Origin: a virus | Direction: 5' to 3' (one strand) | Length of the DNA stretch: 37,582 nucleotides | IMG/VR virus record: IMGVR_UViG_3300045988_169098 | In this document: in pieces, positions 1 through 37,582 of the stretch | Position numbering within the stretch: the stretch's first letter is position 1 | Layout of the letters: each line of letters opens with the position of its first letter | The notes under the pieces: model-generated | Told to the model about the DNA's origin: nothing | The model's input: the letters and a program-made list of their open reading frames with translations, nothing else | Database searches by the model: none | Translations under genes and position numbers: made by a program

Positions 1-55
1 TCCCGTAAGGCAAAGCGGCTATTTTCCAACCCGCTCTCAGCTCAGTGCGTCCTTC
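1..55 (+). repeat. 55-bp terminal direct repeat, left copy (attL core, or circular-assembly overlap)
   Basis: tcccgtaaggcaaagcggctattttccaacccgctctcagctcagtgcgtccttc is identical to 37528-37582, read directly. Confidence 0.9.
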
Positions 56-1606: not shown

Positions 1607-2141
1607 GCGCGAATGCTCCAGAGACCATCAGACGGCCCTCAGGCAGTTCCTGTGCTGTGAACCTGGAGGCCCCGAATGGGCGATGGACCCGCAACGCTAC
1701 ATACGTGACCTCAGCGTGCGCAAGACCCCGAAGGGGATCATGCGCACGCTTCTTGTCGTATCCGGAGATATTCCCTTGCATGATGACGTGGTCGGCTTCT
1801 GCGAATACGGCGTAGCCGTGGAAACGACCGATGAGTATGAGGGCGTCTACCAGATCTCGTATATCGACACCGCTTTGAAGGTGCGTGGCACACATCTCGG
1901 AGACACTCTGCTCTCCTCGGTTATCGTGCGCCTGCGTGACGATGCCTGGCGTTTCAACCGCACGCCACTCGTGCTCACCCAGGTGGATCCGCGCAACAAG
2001 CCCAGCATGGACCTGTTCACACGATTGGATTCATGGACGAGGGGCCGGATCCCCGACGACCCGGAATACCATCTGCTGTCCCTGGAGTTTACCCCGCAGG
2101 AGCGCGGAAACTACTTCGGCAGCACACTCGCGTTCTTCTGA
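1584..2141 (+). CDS. GNAT-like acetyltransferase (putative cargo / moron)
   Basis: 185-aa ORF with good codon bias. It has a motif-A-like KVRGTHLGDTLLSSVI preceded by beta-strand-like VVGFCEYGV...YQISYIDT, and a motif-B-like NKPSMDLFTRLDSW. The antisense ORF 1353..1895 looks spurious. Confidence 0.5.
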   Translation: MGLKLVIERECSRDHQTALRQFLCCEPGGPEWAMDPQRYIRDLSVRKTPKGIMRTLLVVSGDIPLHDDVVGFCEYGVAVETTDEYEGVYQISYIDTALKVRGTHLGDTLLSSVIVRLRDDAWRFNRTPLVLTQVDPRNKPSMDLFTRLDSWTRGRIPDDPEYHLLSLEFTPQERGNYFGSTLAFF

Positions 2142-2228
2142 CATTTCGGGTATAGCTCCGCCAGGCCTATCGGCTATGATGGGGAGGCGAAGCGTCCTCC
2201 TTTCTTGAACTAGCTGGATTCTTCAACC

Positions 2229-2270
2229 GCCCTGTTGGCGCTGCAGTGCCAACAGGGCAATTCTTTTATT
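2229..2270 (+). terminator. Rho-independent terminator between convergent genes
   Basis: Perfect 11-bp stem gccctgttggc / gccaacagggc with an 8-nt loop, followed by aattcttttatt. Confidence 0.75.
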
Positions 2271-3045
2271 GGGTTATTCCATTACTTGGTAAAGGTATCC
2301 CGCTGTTGCGGAATATCGACATCATGGTTGCCGTTGGTGCAATCAACACCGAGACAGGCACGGAATCATCGCCGCGTTTACAGCCGCTTGTGAATATCGC
2401 CATATATTCCTCTCCGACACCAAGATGCTTTGATAATCGAGCGGCGTTCTGCTTGTTGACGTAACCTACACAGCCAGCACCAGATGCGTGAATGGCCACT
2501 GCATTCTTATCGTATTTATTGCCGGGCTCTCTGACTAATTCGGCCTTCGCTAAGGGTCGCGTATCTGCATTCAGCACGGCCTCCTCATAGTATGCGGATC
2601 CTCGTATGGAACCGGTATAGATACCGAGCTTGTAAACCTGCCCACTAGATCTATTCGGCAATAAGCCATTCGGCGCTTCCAGCACCAGTTGGCCGTTATA
2701 CAGGTTGAGCTGCAGGTTGGTGTTGCCTTCGTCGTCCATCGTCACCAAATCAAGTTGGTGTTCGGCGGGGAGGAAGGCATCGCTGTATATCGGTACGTAT
2801 TCAGTCAATCCTTGGACTGGTTTCAAGGTTCGAGGGTCGGCAGGATGCTGAGTGGTTTCCAGCCCGACGAATGCAGAAGGGCGAATCGGCGGATTCTTCA
2901 TCGACCCCGAACCGGAGCCCTTCACTGCTTGATTTGGCTGAGACCGCCCCCATCTTTCCTCTTTGGGTTTTGTCATTTCGATAAGCATGTATGCCGGTAG
3001 GCAAAGCAGTGGAATTCCTATGGAAAAGAACAGTATCCAGCCCAT
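2266..3045 (-). CDS. Membrane-anchored HIRAN-domain protein
   Basis: N-terminal hydrophobic helix MGWILFFSIGIPLLCLPAYMLI. C-terminal HIRAN-like block GSIRGSAYYEEAV...AELVREPGNKYDKNAVAIHASGAGCVGYVNKQNAARLSKHL. RBS aagggg; start lies 10 nt after the ImmA-like stop. Confidence 0.65.
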   Translation of the reverse strand: MGWILFFSIGIPLLCLPAYMLIEMTKPKEERWGRSQPNQAVKGSGSGSMKNPPIRPSAFVGLETTQHPADPRTLKPVQGLTEYVPIYSDAFLPAEHQLDLVTMDDEGNTNLQLNLYNGQLVLEAPNGLLPNRSSGQVYKLGIYTGSIRGSAYYEEAVLNADTRPLAKAELVREPGNKYDKNAVAIHASGAGCVGYVNKQNAARLSKHLGVGEEYMAIFTSGCKRGDDSVPVSVLIAPTATMMSIFRNSGIPLPSNGITQ

Positions 3046-3054
3046 TGCGTCCCC

Positions 3055-3438
3055 TTACGCGGCCACGTTGTCGTGCAGCCATTGTTTGTATGCCTGGATT
3101 ATCCAAGGCATTACGTTCATCTCTTTTGCCATGAGGGTTTCGTCTCCGTCGTATATGTTTTCGGCGGTCTGGTATTCCACTTGGCTTATGAGCATTCGGG
3201 CGGCTTCTATATCCGCTCGTTGTTCCGTGTAGCGGTCGGCGTGGCCTCCCCTGTCGCGGTGTTTGGCGTGGCTGATTTCGTGGGCCAGTACGCACCGGTA
3301 TTGGGTTGGGGTGAGGTCGTCCGCTATGTAGATGGTCTCGGTGTTCGCGTCGTAGAGTCCTTGGTACCCGGTTTGCATCGGGGTGATGATGACTCTTTTC
3401 GCGTACCACCTGGCTTCCTGCTCTAGGTCTGTCGTCAC
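3055..3438 (-). CDS. ImmA/IrrE-family zinc metalloprotease (anti-repressor protease)
   Basis: 127 aa with HEISHAKH (HExxH). Lies directly downstream of, and overlapping, the XRE repressor gene, which is the classic ImmR-ImmA pairing. Confidence 0.8.
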   Translation of the reverse strand: MTTDLEQEARWYAKRVIITPMQTGYQGLYDANTETIYIADDLTPTQYRCVLAHEISHAKHRDRGGHADRYTEQRADIEAARMLISQVEYQTAENIYDGDETLMAKEMNVMPWIIQAYKQWLHDNVAA

Positions 3439-3782
3439 GGCAGCTCCTCGTATGCTTCCTGTTCGGCCTTGGTGTCGCCCGGCTTGGCCACCAGTGTTTG
3501 CATACGAGCAAACGCTTTCTTTGCAAGCTGAGCGTCAGATTCAATCTGAGCTTTTGCAGACGCCTCTTCAAGGATGAGGAGTGGATCGCAGCCAAGTACC
3601 CTCGCGATGGCGTCAATCTCTTCGGTGTTGAAACAGCGATCACCACGAATCTTGTTGTAGTAGCTGTTACGTCCGATACCGGTAGCTGCACAAAGGTCGT
3701 CTATCGTCATGTTGCGGTCACGACGTCGATTTTCGATAACCTCTATGACTCTTTGCGTGAAGAGTGATTCATATTTGCTCAT
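3435..3782 (-). CDS. XRE-family HTH repressor (CI / ImmR-like)
   Basis: Start chosen at MSKYESLF (ATG 3780-3782), giving 115 aa. HTH: MTIDDLCAATGIGRNSYYNKIRG. Divergent from a Cro-like gene. Confidence 0.8.
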   Translation of the reverse strand: MSKYESLFTQRVIEVIENRRRDRNMTIDDLCAATGIGRNSYYNKIRGDRCFNTEEIDAIARVLGCDPLLILEEASAKAQIESDAQLAKKAFARMQTLVAKPGDTKAEQEAYEELP

Positions 3783-3871
3783 GTGAAAGATTGTACCGTT
3801 TTCCAGTACGTTTGCAAAATTCGTGCCGTTTTGGGTTGACAGTACGTAGCGGATACGGTACTTTATAAAAC
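3783..3871. promoter_or_regulatory. Divergent promoter/operator region of the genetic switch
   Basis: AT-rich 89 bp with repeats: GTACCGT (3793-3799) inverted with ACGGTAC (3855-3861); GTRCCGTTTT at 3793 and 3823; CAGTACGT at 3804 and 3840. TTGACA at 3836-3841 lies about 17 nt before TACTTT, consistent with a leaderless cro-like mRNA starting at ATG 3872. Confidence 0.5.
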
Positions 3872-4141
3872 ATGCAAACAAACACACAGCTCTCCGCAAC
3901 ATCAATAGAACTGATTAGGGCAGTAAAGGCCGAGGCGGCGCGCTCGGGCGTGTCCACCCCAGAACTAGCCCGCCGAACTGGGCGCGACCGCAAATTCTTC
4001 TACGACCGCTTCCTATTCCTCAAAGCCTTTTCCACTGAGGACCTCGACGCCATTGCCACAGCCCTCGGCATCACCGCCGCCGACATCATCAACTCGGCAC
4101 GATTCGCAGCCGAAATGCACAACGCGAAGGCGGTGGTGTGA
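3872..4141 (+). CDS. Cro-like HTH regulator
   Basis: 89 aa with HTH VSTPELARRTGRDRKFFYDRF. First rightward gene, opposite the repressor. Confidence 0.7.
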   Translation: MQTNTQLSATSIELIRAVKAEAARSGVSTPELARRTGRDRKFFYDRFLFLKAFSTEDLDAIATALGITAADIINSARFAAEMHNAKAVV

Positions 4142-32458: not shown

Positions 32459-33295
32459 ATGGCAACAAATCTGCTTGTAACCGGCTCGCACGGCGGCGAC
32501 GACCCGCACGTGGAATCGAAGCATGACGCGCTCATGCACGCCGCCATGCTCGGTCGAAGCGGATACATTTTGAAAACCCGGAATTGGACGATGAAACCGA
32601 CGGCGAAGGATGCGAACAACATCACCATCCCAGCATGGGACCTCGTGGTCGAGGGCCGGCAGATCTACATCGCCGCACCGACCGACGTGAACATCCAATC
32701 CGGCTCGCAAGGGCAAAAACGACGCGATCTCATCGTGGCCCGGTACGCGTTGAACTCAGGCACCGGCGTGGAGACGGTCACCCTCGAAGCCATCAAGGGC
32801 GTGCCCAGCTCGGGCACGCCCGCGGATCCGGGCATCGAGACCGGCAGCATCATCGGCGGGGCCATCGTCTCCGACCTGCCACTCTGCCGCGTCAACCTCG
32901 ACGGCATCACCATCACATCGATTGACACACTGGTCAATGTTCTCCAACCCCTAGAGGATGTGTGGGATTCCCTAACCCAGCGTTCTACGATGTGGCGAGT
33001 ACCTTACAGCAGAGACAGCATTTTGCTTACGCGCATCGGTGATATCTGTTTCATGGGTGGCAACGTAAAATTCAACAGTAGCGGGCAGAACAATTACACG
33101 AAGGCTCAGGAGAAGCTCCCCGAAGGGTATCGACCCGTCATCGTCAATACGCCCGTGGCCGTTTTCGGTGGTGAAACGACATTCATCTGTTACGGCGAGG
33201 CCAATGGCACCGTCACGATGCTCGGCAATCCGAACAGCGCGTACGCGGGATGCACCGGCGTATGGAGGACCGCCGACCCGATGCCCGCCGCATAG
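32459..33295 (+). CDS. Receptor-binding / tail tip protein with exchangeable C-terminus (currently carries cassette 0)
   Basis: 278 aa from ATG 32459 (GTG 32453 is an alternative). Last tail gene. Contains the crossover site at codons VWDSLTQ (32960-32980). The constant part runs to about aa 170 and the variable part is 32969-33295. Confidence 0.75.
   Translation: MATNLLVTGSHGGDDPHVESKHDALMHAAMLGRSGYILKTRNWTMKPTAKDANNITIPAWDLVVEGRQIYIAAPTDVNIQSGSQGQKRRDLIVARYALNSGTGVETVTLEAIKGVPSSGTPADPGIETGSIIGGAIVSDLPLCRVNLDGITITSIDTLVNVLQPLEDVWDSLTQRSTMWRVPYSRDSILLTRIGDICFMGGNVKFNSSGQNNYTKAQEKLPEGYRPVIVNTPVAVFGGETTFICYGEANGTVTMLGNPNSAYAGCTGVWRTADPMPAA
32964..32978 (+). repeat. Shufflon crossover site S0 (inside the expressed gene)
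   Basis: GGGATTCCCTAACCC. The 11-bp core TTCCCTAACCC (32968-32978) is shared with S1-S4. The full 15 bp form a perfect inverted repeat with S4. Confidence 0.8.
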
Positions 33296-33346
33296 CTTCG
33301 GGACACTGGCTCAGGCGGTTGCACTGTCTTGCAGTGACCCCACGGG

Positions 33347-33661
33347 TCATAGCGCGTATGAGACGGTCATGCCGAACGCGTTCGTGCCCTGCGTGCCGCC
33401 CTGGTTGTTGTAGGTCATGGTGCCGTTGGCGTTCACGTTGATGGTCTTCTGGTTGGCCCCGTCGCGTCCGCCGTAGGAGAAGTTCAAGTCCATCGGGGGA
33501 CGCCATCCTTCGGGCAGAGTGCCGAACGTGCCGCTGTTCCAGGAGCCGGAGGCCGACGACTTCCAGTCGATTCGCAACGTCACCATCGGCCCGGACCTAT
33601 AGCCCTTAACGGTGCCGTAATTGCCACTGATGAGGGTCGTGACATCGGTGTGGGTTAGGGA
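33347..33661 (-). CDS. Silent RBP C-terminal cassette 1 (start-less, in frame with site S1)
   Basis: Minus-strand frame from the site: SLTHTDVTTLISGNYGTVKGYRSGPMVTLRIDWKSS...LPEGWRPP...MTVSYAL*. There is no RBS or start at its 5' end. Track ORF 33347..33586 is its distal part. Confidence 0.75.
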   Translation of the reverse strand, partial: SLTHTDVTTLISGNYGTVKGYRSGPMVTLRIDWKSSASGSWNSGTFGTLPEGWRPPMDLNFSYGGRDGANQKTINVNANGTMTYNNQGGTQGTNAFGMTVSYAL

Positions 33662-33662
33662 A
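33652..33662 (-). repeat. Shufflon site S1 (inverted relative to S0)
   Basis: GGGTTAGGGAA followed by aa and then CTA, which is the stop codon of cassette 2 on the minus strand. Confidence 0.8.
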
Positions 33663-33664
33663 AA

Positions 33665-33958
33665 CTATTGCCTGTTCCAGATTGCGATCCAGCTTCCGAA
33701 TATCGCGACCCTCCCGCACCAGCGGTTGTCTTTGGTGTTCCACAGGCGGAAGCGTATCTGGTTTACGTCGCTGGTATCCCAACGTTGTGCGGTGCACTCG
33801 CCGGCCTGGGCGAAACCAGTGCCGAACGGCCCAATCGTGTAGGCCGCGTAATCGGCTTTCTTCCCGTTTGGGGATTGGACGTTGATGTAGAATGTGCCGT
33901 CATCATTCGTGGTGACGGTATGGCCTCCGCACAGAATATACGGCATTCGGGTTAGGGA
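33665..33958 (-). CDS. Silent RBP C-terminal cassette 2
   Basis: SLTRMPYILCGGHTVTTNDDGTFYINVQSPNGKKADYAAYTIGPF...GSWIAIWNRQ*, in phase with the SLT codons of S2. Confidence 0.75.
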   Translation of the reverse strand, partial: SLTRMPYILCGGHTVTTNDDGTFYINVQSPNGKKADYAAYTIGPFGTGFAQAGECTAQRWDTSDVNQIRFRLWNTKDNRWCGRVAIFGSWIAIWNRQ

Positions 33959-33959
33959 A
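33949..33959 (-). repeat. Shufflon site S2
   Basis: GGGTTAGGGAA followed by ag and then CTA (stop of cassette 3). Confidence 0.8.
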
Positions 33960-33961
33960 AG

Positions 33962-34243
33962 CTAGTTCCATATCGCAACCCATGAGAATCTTGCAGGCCA
34001 TCTTGCGCCGAACTCTCCAGTACGGGTGTCCATCAATCGCATTTGTGCCGAGTCCACACCATTCTCCCAAATGGTTATGGCCAAGCCTCGCATGTCGTCC
34101 GAGGGCCACGGCCCGGGGGTGGCGACAATTACGTCAGGCGCCTTGCCGTTGGGAGATTGGTAGGAGATGACGCAAATGCCGTTCTCGTTGGAACTCCCAA
34201 TGAACACGCCTGATTGGACGGACGTGGGCAGTGGGGTTAGGGA
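33962..34243 (-). CDS. Silent RBP C-terminal cassette 3
   Basis: SLTPLPTSVQSGVFIGSSNENGICVISYQSPNGKAPDVIVATPGPW...FSWVAIWN*, a paralogue of cassette 2. Confidence 0.75.
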   Translation of the reverse strand, partial: SLTPLPTSVQSGVFIGSSNENGICVISYQSPNGKAPDVIVATPGPWPSDDMRGLAITIWENGVDSAQMRLMDTRTGEFGARWPARFSWVAIWN

Positions 34244-34244
34244 A
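34234..34244 (-). repeat. Shufflon site S3
   Basis: GGGTTAGGGAA followed by ag and then CTA (stop of cassette 4). Confidence 0.8.
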
Positions 34245-34246
34245 AG

Positions 34247-34570
34247 CTACGCGGTAATCCAACAGCCGGATATACCGACGAATCGGCCGGTACATCCGGT
34301 GCCGTTCAACACCATTTTCCCCTCCGGCGTGCCGTAAAGGTAGAAACTGATTGCACCGCTGTTGTCGGTGCCGCGCATGACCGCGCGGGAATCGCCGGAC
34401 GGTCTGAAACCCTCCGGGATTGTCTCGTTGACGGATGTGTTGCCGGTCTGATTGAAATTGCTTGTCAGCGTGATATACGCGCAGGCGGTGACAATACGGC
34501 CGACACGAACCAGAGTGATATGCCTATCGGAGTACGGTATCCTGACTTGGCCCGTGACAGGGGTTAGGGA
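34247..34570 (-). CDS. Silent RBP C-terminal cassette 4 (absent from the ORF track: no usable Met)
   Basis: Hand translation from S4: SLTPVTGQVRIPYSDRHITLVRVGRIVTACAYITLTSNFNQTGNTSVNETIPEGFRPSGDSRAVMRGTDNSGAISFYLYGTPEGKMVLNGTGCTGRFVGISGCWITA*. It is a paralogue of the expressed C-terminus. Confidence 0.7.
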   Translation of the reverse strand, partial: SLTPVTGQVRIPYSDRHITLVRVGRIVTACAYITLTSNFNQTGNTSVNETIPEGFRPSGDSRAVMRGTDNSGAISFYLYGTPEGKMVLNGTGCTGRFVGISGCWITA

Positions 34571-34575
34571 ATCCC
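34561..34575 (-). repeat. Shufflon site S4 (outer boundary, next to the recombinase gene)
   Basis: GGGTTAGGGAATCCC is the exact reverse complement of S0 (32964-32978). The recombinase stop codon lies at 34578-34580. Confidence 0.8.
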
Positions 34576-34577
34576 GT

Positions 34578-35447
34578 TCAGGCTATTAGGGCTCGTTCCC
34601 AGAGGCGTTGCGCGTCTCGCAGGGCTGAGATATCCGGTTTGAGGTAGTACTTTGCGGTGGTTTTGATGTCGCTGTGGCCGAGCATTTTGCTCACGATGGC
34701 GATGTCAGCCCCGGCGGCCAGAGTGTTCGTCGCCCATGAGTGGCGCAGGTTGCGTGCGGGCACGTGCGGCAGGTTATGCCGTTTGCACCAGCTCGCGTAT
34801 TGGCGTGCGGTTTGCGGCGGGGTGAGGGTGCCGATGAGTCGGCCTCCTTCGCGTGGTTTGATTTCGCGCAATCGTTTGACGGCGAAGCGCGGCAACGGGA
34901 GTGTGCGGCGGGACAGTTCGGTTTTAGGCGGCACTGTGACCTCATGCCCGCTCACCCATTGCAGGCCACGCTCCACGTGCAGGACACCTGAGCGCAGGTC
35001 AATATCCGACCATTCAAGCCCGTAGCCCTCTTCGGTGCGGAGTCCGCATGAGACGGCGCAGATAAGCCACGCCTCAAGCGGATGGCCGTAAAAGCCCTGC
35101 AACAGTGCGCGCTGCTGACGGAGGGTCAATATGGTCGGCTCGTAATGAGGTTTGGCCGGCAGTTGGATGTCGCGTCTCGTGATGTCCACGTCCAGCAGGT
35201 TCCAGCGGATAGCCCGCCTGAGTATCGCGCGCAATACGGCCCATGCCTTGCGTGCGGCTCCCGCAGTGTCGAAATTCGCAAGCCATTTGTCCACTAGCTC
35301 CACGCTTATCGCGTCCATACCCATGCCGCCGAAGCATGGCATGACATGCAGCCGCCACGCGGACTCGTAGCCCACGCGCGTGCTCTCACGCAGATTCCGC
35401 GTGCAATGCGGCCAAAACCGGCCGTTCCAAAACTCTTGTAACAGCAT
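34578..35447 (-). CDS. rin: Tyrosine recombinase, predicted shufflon DNA invertase (Rci/Rin-like)
   Basis: 289 aa from ATG 35445-35447 (RBS ggagg). Contains SCGLRTEEGYGLEWSDI (Arg), RNLRHSWATNTL (HxxR) and LGHSDIKTTAKYYLKP (His, Tyr). It is a second tyrosine recombinase distinct from int and abuts the cassette array. The symbol is used by analogy only. Confidence 0.8.
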   Translation of the reverse strand: MLLQEFWNGRFWPHCTRNLRESTRVGYESAWRLHVMPCFGGMGMDAISVELVDKWLANFDTAGAARKAWAVLRAILRRAIRWNLLDVDITRRDIQLPAKPHYEPTILTLRQQRALLQGFYGHPLEAWLICAVSCGLRTEEGYGLEWSDIDLRSGVLHVERGLQWVSGHEVTVPPKTELSRRTLPLPRFAVKRLREIKPREGGRLIGTLTPPQTARQYASWCKRHNLPHVPARNLRHSWATNTLAAGADIAIVSKMLGHSDIKTTAKYYLKPDISALRDAQRLWERALIA

Positions 35448-35458
35448 TTTCAACCTCC

Positions 35459-37527: not shown

Positions 37528-37582
37528 TCCCGTAAGGCAAAGCGGCTATTTTCCAACCCGCTCTCAGCTCAGTGCGTCCTTC
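37528..37582 (+). repeat. 55-bp terminal direct repeat, right copy (attR core, or circular-assembly overlap)
   Basis: Identical to 1-55 in the same orientation. Confidence 0.9.

What the first reader, a model, noticed from the sequence alone, without database searches (positions are those of the whole stretch)
32964..34575. Two site classes: a perfect 15-bp inverted repeat bounds the invertible region, and internal sites are fused to stop codons
All five sites share the 11-bp core TTCCCTAACCC, but the flank on the upstream (coding-sense) side falls into two classes. The gene copy S0 (GGGATTCCCTAACCC, 32964-32978) and the outermost copy S4 (GGGTTAGGGAATCCC, 34561-34575) are exact reverse complements over 15 bp. 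They also contain the near-palindrome GGGA(T)TCCC. The three internal sites all read GGGTTAGGGAA-AR-CTA (33652-33667, 33949-33964, 34234-34249). Their other arm is therefore the TAG stop of the neighbouring cassette at a fixed 2-nt spacing. Because crossover within the shared core leaves the upstream flank in place, the GGGAT flanks mark the two fixed ends of the shufflon. The TAGYT flanks mark the movable junctions. The asymmetry (one conserved arm plus core, one variable arm) parallels R64 sfx sites, where it is thought to enforce inversion and prevent deletion between directly repeated sites. The four silent cassettes here are head-to-tail direct repeats of the site, so deletion avoidance would matter.
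Basis: partly seen in the sequence, partly recalled or inferred. Interest (0 to 1): 0.7.

Follow-up and report, generated by a model that had tools for sequence, protein, structure and literature searches.

The report
Known Rin shufflon; site flanks refined

Summary
Every sequence observation is confirmed. There are five exact copies of TTCCCTAACCC. A perfect 15-bp inverted repeat sits at the two outer sites. An amber stop lies 2 nt before each of the three inner cores.

The locus is the Rin shufflon of Mavrich et al. 2018 (PMC6109161), with the identical 11-bp rix core. It has a constant RBP N-terminus (Rc), five variable C-terminal cassettes and a XerD-like tyrosine recombinase.

In 81 complete loci of this lineage, both end sites always carry GGGW and no inner site does.

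The rule fails across the family. In other lineages the rin-proximal site is TAGCA, TAGTT or TAGGA, and inner, directly repeated sites can be GGGA.

A better description is a small dyad site, TGGGW | 7-bp overlap TTCNNNA | NCCCA. The cassette's stop codon is built into the left half-site (TGG to TAG).

Deletion avoidance by asymmetry, as in R64, is untested and not favoured. Cassette number varies from 2 to 6. Cassettes also move between phage lineages as units bounded by rix sites (99% versus 70% identity).

The system is known. The flank detail and the cassette mobility are modest additions.

The parts
32459..32967 (+). Rc: constant N-terminal part (169 aa) of the receptor-binding tail protein gene 32459-33295
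   Evidence: The ORF is. PHROG matches cover only residues 6-178. It lies after the Dit and minor tail protein genes. It corresponds to the 168-residue Rc of PMC6109161.
32963..32979 (+). rix S0 (Rc site): TGGGA | TTCCCTA | ACCCA. Its left half-site encodes Trp-Asp. The proposed 7-bp overlap is 32968-32974.
   Evidence: I3.
32968..33295 (+). Cassette C0, the currently expressed variable C-terminus (108 aa from SLT)
   Evidence: It belongs to cassette cluster V01.
33347..33662 (-). Silent cassette C1. It lies tail-to-tail with C0. Together they form the one 'two-headed' segment that every complete locus contains.
33652..33667 (-). rix S1: TAG-TT-TTCCCTAACCC. The TAG is the stop of cassette C2.
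   Evidence: D1.
33665..33959 (-). Silent cassette C2
   Evidence: In contigs carrying the identical Rin protein, C2 rather than C4 sits next to rin.
33949..33964 (-). rix S2: TAG-CT-TTCCCTAACCC. The TAG is the stop of C3.
33962..34244 (-). Silent cassette C3
   Evidence: The same cassette is 98.7-99% identical in L166 and L185, whose rin is only about 68-71% identical.
34234..34249 (-). rix S3: TAG-CT-TTCCCTAACCC. The TAG is the stop of C4.
34247..34571 (-). Silent cassette C4
   Evidence: It is 94% identical in L169 and L185, whose flanks are about 70% identical.
34561..34575 (-). rix S4 (rin-proximal site): GGGA-TTCCCTAACCC. It is the perfect 15-bp inverted partner of S0 and lies 2 nt after the rin stop.
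   Evidence: I3. The GGG[A/T] flank is conserved in 151 of 152 rin-proximal sites even though its spacing to the TGA varies from 0 to 2 nt.
34578..35447 (-). rin: a XerD-like tyrosine recombinase (289 aa from the ATG at 35447; the ORF opens at a TTG at 35453)
   Evidence: Pfam PF00589 and PF14659. The nearest solved structure is XerD 1a0p, E 3e-9. The exact protein is on record as 289 aa.

Best explanation
The region is a Rin shufflon. The tyrosine recombinase Rin (34578-35447, minus strand) recombines five rix sites. As a result, any of five unrelated C-terminal cassettes can be fused in frame, through the Ser-Leu-Thr codons of the core, to the constant N-terminus of the phage receptor-binding protein.

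Each rix site is best described as a small dyad: a left half-site (consensus TGGGW), a 7-bp asymmetric overlap TTCCCTA where the strands are exchanged, and a right half-site (NCCCA). Exchange inside the overlap leaves the left half-site with whatever lies upstream and moves the right half-site with its cassette.

The two flank classes follow from what lies upstream. The Rc site (Trp-Asp codons TGG GAT) and the short non-coding stub after rin keep the full GGGA half-site, so they form the 15-bp inverted repeat. At cassette-cassette junctions, the preceding cassette's stop codon is built into the half-site with little change (TGG to TAG, keeping T at -5 and G at -3). This gives TAG-YW.

This positional rule is a property of this phage lineage, not of Rin shufflons in general. 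Weak left half-sites may bias the reaction, but nothing here shows that they prevent deletion.

What is shown: site positions, flank conservation, flank-cassette reassortment and cassette sharing between lineages. What is inferred: the extent of the overlap, the cut positions, and Rin binding to the half-sites.
For: - Identity with the published system. The 11-bp rix is the same, and so is the layout of Rc, Rv cassettes and rin. Rin is XerD-like. The gene sits in a tail-module context. The cassettes are 15-32% identical, and Ser-Leu-Thr is the only invariant block among them.
- Exchange inside the core. Each upstream flank is found with many cassettes while base -1 stays with the flank. L172/L174 differ from L173 by a whole-segment inversion. 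Contigs with the identical Rin join the rin flank to C2 instead of C4, and the alignments overlap by exactly the 11-bp core.
- A 7-bp overlap. Positions +4, +5 and +6 differ between lineages (TTCCCTA, TTCGCTA, TTCCGTA, TTCACTA, TTCCCAA, TCCCGTA). They are uniform within a locus except in L192 (+4 mixed C/T). Positions -1 and +8 are mixed within loci.
- Hybrid sites. In L166 a transferred cassette carries +8=A on its own side, while the next core has +8=T. In L206 a site with native flanks has had +4 converted to the resident C.
- A junction at the predicted cut positions. L037 joins the two fixed flanks across a single overlap, GGGA|TAGGGAA|TCCC.
- Dyad symmetry. Among 106 unique upstream flanks, G at -3 occurs in 104, R at -4 in 104, W at -1 in 103 and T at -5 in 62. 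On the other side, A at +12 occurs in 70 of 108.
- Spacer length. L217 keeps 5-bp arms and a 7-bp spacer although the spacer sequence has changed. The E. lenta rix TTCCGTAT contains the same 7 bp.
- Lineage rule. Exceptions in other lineages.
Against: - No biochemical data exist. The cut positions and Rin binding are inferred from comparative sequence only.
- Five-bp half-sites are short for a tyrosine recombinase, so real contacts may extend into the unconserved flanks.
- Unique flanks are not phylogenetically independent.
- C or T at -2 in TAG-class flanks is not explained by the minimal-change idea, since TAGGA would also serve and is in fact used next to rin in L166/L175-197.
- L192 has mixed overlaps (TTCTCTA and TTCCCTA) in one contig.
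- The L037 junction could also arise from 3-4 bp of microhomology.
- Many relatives are metagenome assemblies.
Confidence: 0.7

Rival explanations
1. The two site classes are a functional design. Symmetric GGGA sites fix the ends. Asymmetric TAG-YT sites, as in R64 sfx, let Rin invert DNA between inverted sites but block deletion between the directly repeated silent cassettes.
For: - The positional rule is perfect in 81 loci of this lineage.
- The GGGW flank next to rin is kept although it is non-coding and its spacing to the stop codon varies.
- TAG-YW flanks are conserved down to lineages with 52% Rin identity.
- In R64, asymmetry is reported to restrict Rci to inversion, and symmetric sites give excision (PMC11852207).
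- Multi-cassette arrays persist despite heavy shuffling, so deletion must be much rarer than inversion.
- Mavrich et al. report that inversion of the whole segment, which is the reaction between the two GGGA sites, predominates in virion DNA.
Against: - Other lineages keep 4-7 sites with GGGA/GGGT flanks on internal, directly repeated sites (L164, L167/L215, L199, L200, L210). Others have TAG-class flanks at the rin-proximal end (L001, L172-174, L218, L219).
- Rin ends 21 residues after the catalytic Tyr270, so it lacks the extra C-terminal domain that the R64 model relies on.
- A plasmid-wide tblastn with Rin listed no recombinase annotated as Rci, and neither Escherichia nor Salmonella was among the ten most frequent genera.
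- Cassette number varies from 2 to 6. Tandem and duplicated cassettes occur. Cassettes have transferred between lineages at rix boundaries. All of these need recombination other than inversion.
Confidence: 0.2
2. The flanks are historical relics only. Cassette units were duplicated together with their junctions, and the GGGA next to rin is a leftover copy of the Rc site. Rin would recognise only the 11-bp core.
For: - The cassettes are homologous RBP head domains with similar C-terminal residues, so their 3' ends may share ancestry.
- Upstream flanks travel with cassette 3' ends, so the many TAG-YW counts trace back to a limited number of cassette types.
Against: - G at -3 is as conserved as the core (104 of 106 unique flanks). 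By contrast, the cassettes have diverged to 15-32% identity and the downstream flank carries almost no information.
- GGGW next to rin survives indels that change its distance to the stop.
- In L001, TAGCA is kept after a separate TAA stop.
- The T at -5 and A at +12 mirror each other.
Confidence: 0.1

Closest known systems
Rin shufflon of Bifidobacterium breve/longum dnaJ2-integrated prophages (Bb423phi1, Bl157phi1, Bl30698phi1; Mavrich et al. 2018, PMC6109161)
   Same: The 11-bp rix TTCCCTAACCC is identical. The Rc N-terminus is about 168 aa. There are five Rv cassettes of about 95-108 aa. The recombinase is XerD-like, has no arm-binding domain, and sits at the far end of the cassettes. The locus lies between the tail genes and the lysis genes. 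Natural inversion variants exist.
   Different: Nothing essential differs. The paper calls the site a short asymmetric 11-bp repeat. Its main text has no occurrence of 'palindrom' or 'symmetr', and its only 'stop codon' refers to the rin gene of Bl30698phi1; the supplements were not checked. Here the arrangement has the expressed cassette tail-to-tail with a silent one, rather than followed by a direct site.
R64 / IncI plasmid shufflon (Rci recombinase, sfx sites, pilV C-termini)
   Same: A tyrosine recombinase carries out multiple inversions. A constant N-terminus is fused to alternative C-termini of a surface adhesin. The overlap is 7 bp. One side of the site is well conserved and the other is variable.
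   Different: Rci has an extra C-terminal domain that Rin lacks. In sfx, the core plus a 12-bp right arm are conserved and the left arm is free. In rix, only 4-5 bp of each arm are conserved and the left arm comes in a full and a degenerate form. Strict inversion-only behaviour is documented for Rci but not for Rin.
Min, Gin, Cin and Pin tail-fibre inversion systems of p15B, Mu, P1 and e14
   Same: Phage-encoded switching of the C-terminal, host-range-determining part of a tail protein by DNA inversion. Min acts on several sites.
   Different: These use serine invertases with an enhancer and Fis. Rin is a tyrosine recombinase.
Rin-like shufflon of Eggerthella lenta clade 1 prophages (PMC8778435)
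   Same: The same layout of Rc, Rv cassettes and rin. The 8-bp repeat TTCCGTAT contains the same 7-bp overlap as the TTCCGTA group found here (L002, L170). The repeat is also found just after a stop codon.
   Different: It comes from a different host class. Only 8 bp are reported as conserved, and the CCC arm is not reported.
Integron gene cassettes (IntI, attI/attC)
   Same: This is a comparison of how the system works, not of membership. Promoterless coding cassettes are bounded by tyrosine-recombinase sites, and the same cassette is found in diverged platforms.
   Different: There are no attC hairpins and no single-strand substrates, and Rin is not an IntI. Here expression is selected by inversion and in-frame fusion, not by position behind a promoter.

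Membership tests
Rin shufflon (Mavrich 2018) | 11-bp rix repeat TTCCCTAACCC upstream of every variable cassette and inside the RBP gene | tested here: met
   There are five exact copies, one in frame in the gene and four at cassette starts. The same sequence is given in PMC6109161.
Rin shufflon (Mavrich 2018) | Adjacent tyrosine recombinase of XerD-like build (core-binding plus catalytic domains, no arm-type domain) | tested here: met
   Pfam PF14659 and PF00589. The best PDB match is XerD. Columns invariant in 19 homologues include R139, K177, R237, H260 and Y270; reading these as the catalytic residues is inference from the family motifs.
Rin shufflon (Mavrich 2018) | Constant RBP N-terminus fused to dissimilar C-terminal cassettes, in a tail gene module | tested here: met
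   The constant part is 169 aa. The cassettes are 15-32% identical. Dit and minor tail protein genes lie upstream and an endolysin gene downstream. RBP fold homology was not retested: a sequence search of the PDB found nothing, and the paper used HHpred.
Rin shufflon (Mavrich 2018) | Inversions actually occur at the rix sites | tested here: met
   Contigs with the identical Rin protein carry different arrangements, and the junctions lie at the core. The 81 complete close-relative loci show many different cassette orders. Of the 95 contigs that end downstream of rin, 57 end within 130 nt of a rix core.
Rin shufflon (Mavrich 2018) | Bifidobacterium prophage integrated in dnaJ2 | not tested
   The window is a circular metagenome assembly without host flanks. 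Related loci come from Bifidobacterium genomes, and L166 has dnaJ next to the prophage end.
R64-type shufflon (Rci/sfx) | Rci-family recombinase with the additional C-terminal domain | tested here: not met
   Rin has 21 residues after the catalytic Tyr270. A tblastn search of 72,556 plasmids at E<=1e-3 matched 747 records; none of the 25 rows shown is annotated as Rci, and neither Escherichia nor Salmonella is among the ten most frequent genera. This second test is indirect, because no Rci sequence was compared directly.
R64-type shufflon (Rci/sfx) | Site made of a 7-bp spacer plus a conserved 12-bp right arm and an unconserved left arm | tested here: inconclusive
   A 7-bp stretch that is uniform within each locus (one exception, L192) is supported. 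However, the right arm is conserved over only 4-5 bp, and the left arm is partly conserved (G at -3 in 104 of 106).
R64-type shufflon (Rci/sfx) | Inversion only, with no recombination between direct sites | not testable with these tools
   Indirect evidence points against strictness. Loci carry 2-6 cassettes. Cassettes are duplicated. Cassettes bounded by rix sites have transferred between lineages.
Serine-invertase tail-fibre switches (Gin/Cin/Min) | Serine recombinase of the resolvase/invertase family | tested here: not met
   The only recombinase at the locus is a tyrosine recombinase.

The most novel reading that the evidence does not exclude
Besides inverting, the rix sites make the Rv cassettes a horizontally shared pool. 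Cassettes bounded by rix sites move between phage lineages whose Rin and Rc genes are only about 70% identical at the DNA level. The likely route is Rin-mediated excision and integration, or cassette exchange between co-resident genomes. The 7-bp overlap sequence (TTCCCTA, TTCGCTA, TTCCGTA, TTCACTA, TTCCCAA, TCCCGTA) would define which shufflons can exchange. On this reading the system is a shufflon that also behaves like a small integron for receptor-binding domains, and the left half-site variants tune the reaction rather than forbid deletion.
Probability: 0.45. Interest if true: 0.6.

Novelty: already known. Interest (0 to 1): 0.33.

Why it matters
Rin shufflons let temperate phages of a key infant-gut genus change their host range, and they are common in gut metagenomes. 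The largest Rin protein clusters found here hold about 2,000-3,900 member sequences each.

The authors who described the system left one question open: how an armless tyrosine recombinase favours inversion over deletion. The flank classes give a concrete variable to test, namely a full versus a degenerate left half-site. The proposed 7-bp overlap gives a site model that can be mutated.

The comparative data suggest the answer is not a strict prohibition. Cassettes are gained, lost, duplicated and exchanged between lineages at rix sites. This bears on how phage host range evolves in the gut. It could also offer a compact tyrosine invertase and a short site for synthetic shuffling tools, alongside Rci.

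Tried and rejected
- Megablast of the locus against GenBank phages found nothing, so the published prophages could not be aligned directly.
- R64 (AP005147) is not in the plasmid collection, so Rci could not be compared directly. An indirect tblastn was used instead.
- My first Rc query was translated in the wrong frame and found only 19 complete loci. After correction it found 83.
- A site filter required a repeated 7-mer. This biases the within-locus uniformity of +1 to +7 reported. That claim therefore rests on the unfiltered tables.
- The idea that base -1 is exchanged during recombination was considered, because A/T variants occur on the same flank background. It was rejected as the rule because -1 stays with the flank in more than 93% of cases.
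- Contigs L222-L225, where the rin flank is joined to C2 in direct orientation, at first looked like S4 x S2 deletion products. That arrangement can be reached by two inversions, so they do not prove deletion.
- Loci with 2-3 cassettes that are closely related to 5-6 cassette loci (L150 and L079, rin 99.9% identical) carry different cassette sets. They are therefore not simple deletion derivatives.
- The sigma-70 promoter and terminator scan gave nothing above chance.
- A sequence search of the PDB with the RBP gave no significant hit.
- Some contig ends carry an inverted second copy of the rin 3' end (L016, L023, L033, L089). These were treated as assembly artefacts at the invertible region.
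Full report
**1. Observation**

The window holds exactly five copies of TTCCCTAACCC: one on the + strand (32968-32978) and four on the - strand (33652, 33949, 34234, 34561). Shuffles give a mean of 0.27 matches, and 0 of 100 reach five.

The two outermost copies extend to a perfect 15-nt inverted repeat, GGGATTCCCTAACCC / GGGTTAGGGAATCCC, at 32964-32978 and 34561-34575 (I3). The three inner copies are each followed on the + strand by AA-CTA or AG-CTA. Those CTA triplets are the TAG stops of minus-strand ORFs ending at 33665, 33962 and 34247. All coordinates and sequences in the finding are correct.

Two additions:
- The TAGs are in the same frame as the Ser-Leu-Thr codons of the core. TAG therefore sits where the gene copy has the Trp codon TGG.
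- The recombinase gene's own TGA stop lies 2 nt from the 15-mer S4.

**2. What the locus is**

- The + strand gene 32459-33295 (278 aa) lies after the Dit and minor-tail-protein genes. Its PHROG matches cover only residues 6-178.
- The minus strand carries four head-to-tail ORF fragments. Each starts at a core and ends at the next one.
- The five alternative C-termini are 15-32% identical. Ser-Leu-Thr, encoded by the core, is the only invariant block.
- Next comes a 289-aa tyrosine recombinase (Pfam PF14659 and PF00589). Its nearest solved structure is XerD. A small ORF of unknown function and an endolysin gene follow.

This is the Rin shufflon described by Mavrich et al. 2018 (PMC6109161). 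That paper reports the same 11-bp rix sequence, the same layout of Rc, Rv cassettes and rin, and inversions at the rix sites. Its authors explicitly left open how deletion between direct rix sites is avoided. The main text of the paper has no occurrence of 'palindrom' or 'symmetr', and its only 'stop codon' refers to the rin gene of Bl30698phi1; the supplements were not checked.

The layout in the window is: Rc, S0>, C0>, <C1, <S1, <C2, <S2, <C3, <S3, <C4, <S4, <rin.

**3. Relatives**

I fetched about 220 loci:
- 160 close relatives with Rin 88-98% identical.
- Contigs with the identical Rin protein.
- Diverged lineages with Rin 52-77% identical, from Bifidobacterium genomes, MAGs and viromes.

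Of the 95 contigs that end downstream of rin, 57 end within 130 nt of a rix core. That is expected if populations are mixtures of arrangements.

**4.

- Each upstream flank (the rin 3' end, the Rc end, and each cassette's 3' end) is found joined to many cassettes. The rin flank is joined to 11 cassette clusters and one Rc flank to 13. Base -1 stays with its flank in 77/77, 110/117 and 63/64 cases.
- L172/L174 and L173 differ by a whole-segment inversion in which the flanks stay and the cassette starts swap.
- Four contigs from different samples with the identical Rin protein join the rin flank to C2 instead of C4. The alignments overlap by exactly the 11-bp core.
- In all 83 complete loci, every site pointing away from rin precedes every site pointing the other way. 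So there is always exactly one tail-to-tail pair of cassettes. The rin and Rc sites are always mutually inverted, and each end site is a direct repeat of the inner sites on its own side.

**5. The two-class rule is real in this lineage**

In the 81 complete loci of the window's lineage, the rin-proximal site and the Rc site carry GGG[A/T] in 81/81 each. Inner sites carry TAG+2 nt in 134 of 144 cases and never GGGW.

The GGGW flank next to rin is non-coding. It persists although its distance to the TGA stop varies from 0 to 2 nt.

**6. The rule is not a property of the family**

The rin-proximal flank in other lineages is:
- TAGCA in L001 and L218.
- TAGCT in L219.
- TAGTT in L172-174.
- TAGGA in L166 and L175-197.
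- AGCA in L168.
- GGCT in L170.

Inner, directly repeated sites carry GGGA or GGGT in L164, L167/L215 and L198-L214, often as TAGGGA with the stop one base further out and in another frame.

In L001, rin ends with TAA, and TAGCA follows before the core. There the TAG is kept without serving as the stop.

**7. A better site model**

Between lineages the core differs at +4, +5 or +6: TTCCCTA, TTCGCTA, TTCCGTA, TTCACTA, TTCCCAA, and TCCCGTA in L217. Within a locus these positions are uniform, with one exception (L192). Positions -1 and +8 are mixed within loci. This is the signature of a 7-bp overlap region, which must match between partner sites, flanked by bases that stay with each arm.

Three natural hybrids agree with this:
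- In L166 a transferred cassette brings +8=A on its own side, while the next core keeps +8=T and the donor's TAGCT flank.
- In L206 a site with native flanks has had +4 converted to the resident C.
- In L037, from an isolate genome, the rin flank and the Rc flank are joined across a single overlap (TGA-AC-GGGA|TAGGGAA|TCCCACACG). All cassettes are gone and the Rc ORF is truncated. The breakpoints lie at -1/+1 of one site and +7/+8 of the other. This is a single case, and a microhomology deletion is not excluded.

Outside the overlap, the 106 unique upstream flanks show G at -3 in 104, G or A at -4 in 104, A or T at -1 in 103, and T at -5 in 62. Downstream, CCC is invariant and A at +12 occurs in 70 of 108. 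Together these give the dyad TGGGW | N7 | NCCCA. S0 reads TGGGA|TTCCCTA|ACCCA.

GGGW flanks are therefore full left half-sites. TAG-YW flanks keep T at -5, G at -3 and W at -1.

The E. lenta rix TTCCGTAT contains the same 7 bp (PMC8778435).

**8. Deletion avoidance**

The sfx site has a 12-bp left arm, a 7-bp core and a 12-bp right arm. Only the core and right arm are conserved. Symmetric sites give excision, and the model relies on an extra C-terminal domain of Rci (PMC11852207).

Rin has only 21 residues after its catalytic Tyr. A plasmid-wide tblastn with Rin listed no recombinase annotated as Rci, and neither Escherichia nor Salmonella was among the ten most frequent genera.

Multi-cassette arrays persist despite heavy shuffling, so deletion must be much rarer than inversion. 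Recombination other than inversion clearly happens on evolutionary time, though:
- Close relatives have 2, 3, 4, 5 or 6 sites per locus (10, 23, 30, 15 and 4 loci).
- L182 has two alleles of one cassette in tandem, and L106 has the same cassette twice.
- Cassettes are shared between lineages as blocks that end exactly at rix cores. C3 is 98.7-99.0% identical, C2 98.7% and C4 94% between the window and L166, L169 or L185. The adjoining rin and Rc sequences there are 67-71% identical.

Eleven to fifteen shared bases are too few for homologous recombination or for assembly chimeras. Rin-mediated excision and integration, or cassette exchange, is therefore the most economical explanation. This step is inferred.

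**9. Verdict**

The feature is real, and the system is already known. The flank dichotomy is a true regularity of this lineage that I did not find in the main text of the original paper. It is best explained by a partly conserved left half-site into which cassette stop codons are built.

Its positional form does not hold in other lineages.

The most interesting by-products are the 7-bp overlap model, with its lineage-specific overlap sequences, and the evidence that cassettes move between phages at rix sites.

Noticed in passing
window 1-55 and 37528-37582: The first 55 bases equal the last 55, so the window is a circular assembly of a whole phage genome of about 37.5 kb. L220, a 37,076-bp contig from another record, runs across the junction at 99.9-100% identity.
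   Followed up: partly
L037 5868-5900 (IMGVR_UViG_2907562514_000001): The rin stop and the Rc gene are joined through one hybrid site, GGGA|TAGGGAA|TCCC. All cassettes are missing and the Rc ORF ends ...VWDSLSRSGY*. This looks like an illegitimate deletion between the two mutually inverted end sites, with breakpoints at the predicted cut positions.
   Followed up: partly
window 33962-34244 (C3) and 34247-34571 (C4); L166 6357-6657; L169 3460-3797; L185 3274-4881: Individual cassettes are 94-99% identical between phage lineages whose rin and Rc are about 67-71% identical. The blocks end exactly at rix cores. The cassettes therefore form a horizontally shared pool.
   Followed up: yes
rin, window about 34830-34860 (residues about 200-213); proteins P0054, P0056, P0063: Many database clusters hold rin alleles frameshifted at or near the same spot. 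Two (P0054, P0056) differ by one base within GGAGGCCGA, and one (P0063) shifts a few codons later. They lose the catalytic half of the protein. Some clusters have 36-269 members, so locked shufflons seem common. Mavrich et al. also noted a broken rin in Bl30698phi1.
   Followed up: partly
L169 1929-3098 (protein P0068, 389 aa); also P0015, P0017, P0023, P0043 and P0046 (339-367 aa): In L169 the stop before the rin-proximal core is TGG instead of TAG, so rin reads through the rix site into the adjacent cassette and gives a Rin-Rv fusion. The C-terminus of that fusion would change with each inversion. Of the other long Rin proteins only P0015 was read: its C-terminal tail is out of frame. The other four were not inspected.
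   Followed up: partly
L164, L167, L170, L198-L215, L217-L219 (rix sites): The overlap sequences fall into groups (TTCCCTA, TTCGCTA, TTCCGTA, TTCACTA, TTCCCAA, TCCCGTA) that are uniform within a locus. These may be compatibility groups for recombination. L192 is an exception, with TTCTCTA and TTCCCTA in one contig.
   Followed up: partly
L182 3240-3893; L106 5883 and 7773: L182 has two alleles of the same cassette (316 of 327 bases identical) in tandem. L106 has the same cassette both next to rin and fused to Rc.
   Followed up: partly
L003-L162, contig ends: Of the 95 contigs that end downstream of rin, 57 stop within 130 nt of a rix core, and 28 of those stop at the rin-proximal site. A few end in an inverted copy of the rin 3' end (L016, L023, L033, L089), probably an assembly artefact of mixed arrangements.
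   Followed up: partly
literature, PMC6109161 section 8: The 8-bp site CAGGGTTA of the second, recombinase-less inversion in the tRNA-Met prophages is the reverse complement of TAACCCTG. That overlaps rix positions +6 to +11 (TAACCC). One of these prophages (Bb423phi2) shares its host with the Rin phage Bb423phi1, so Rin might act on it in trans.
   Followed up: no
window 33296-33346: The 51-bp gap between the convergent stops of C0 and C1 contains a small hairpin (CACTG-TCTTG-CAGTG). The terminator scan did not call it. This two-headed segment is the one part that rix x rix recombination can never excise.
   Followed up: no
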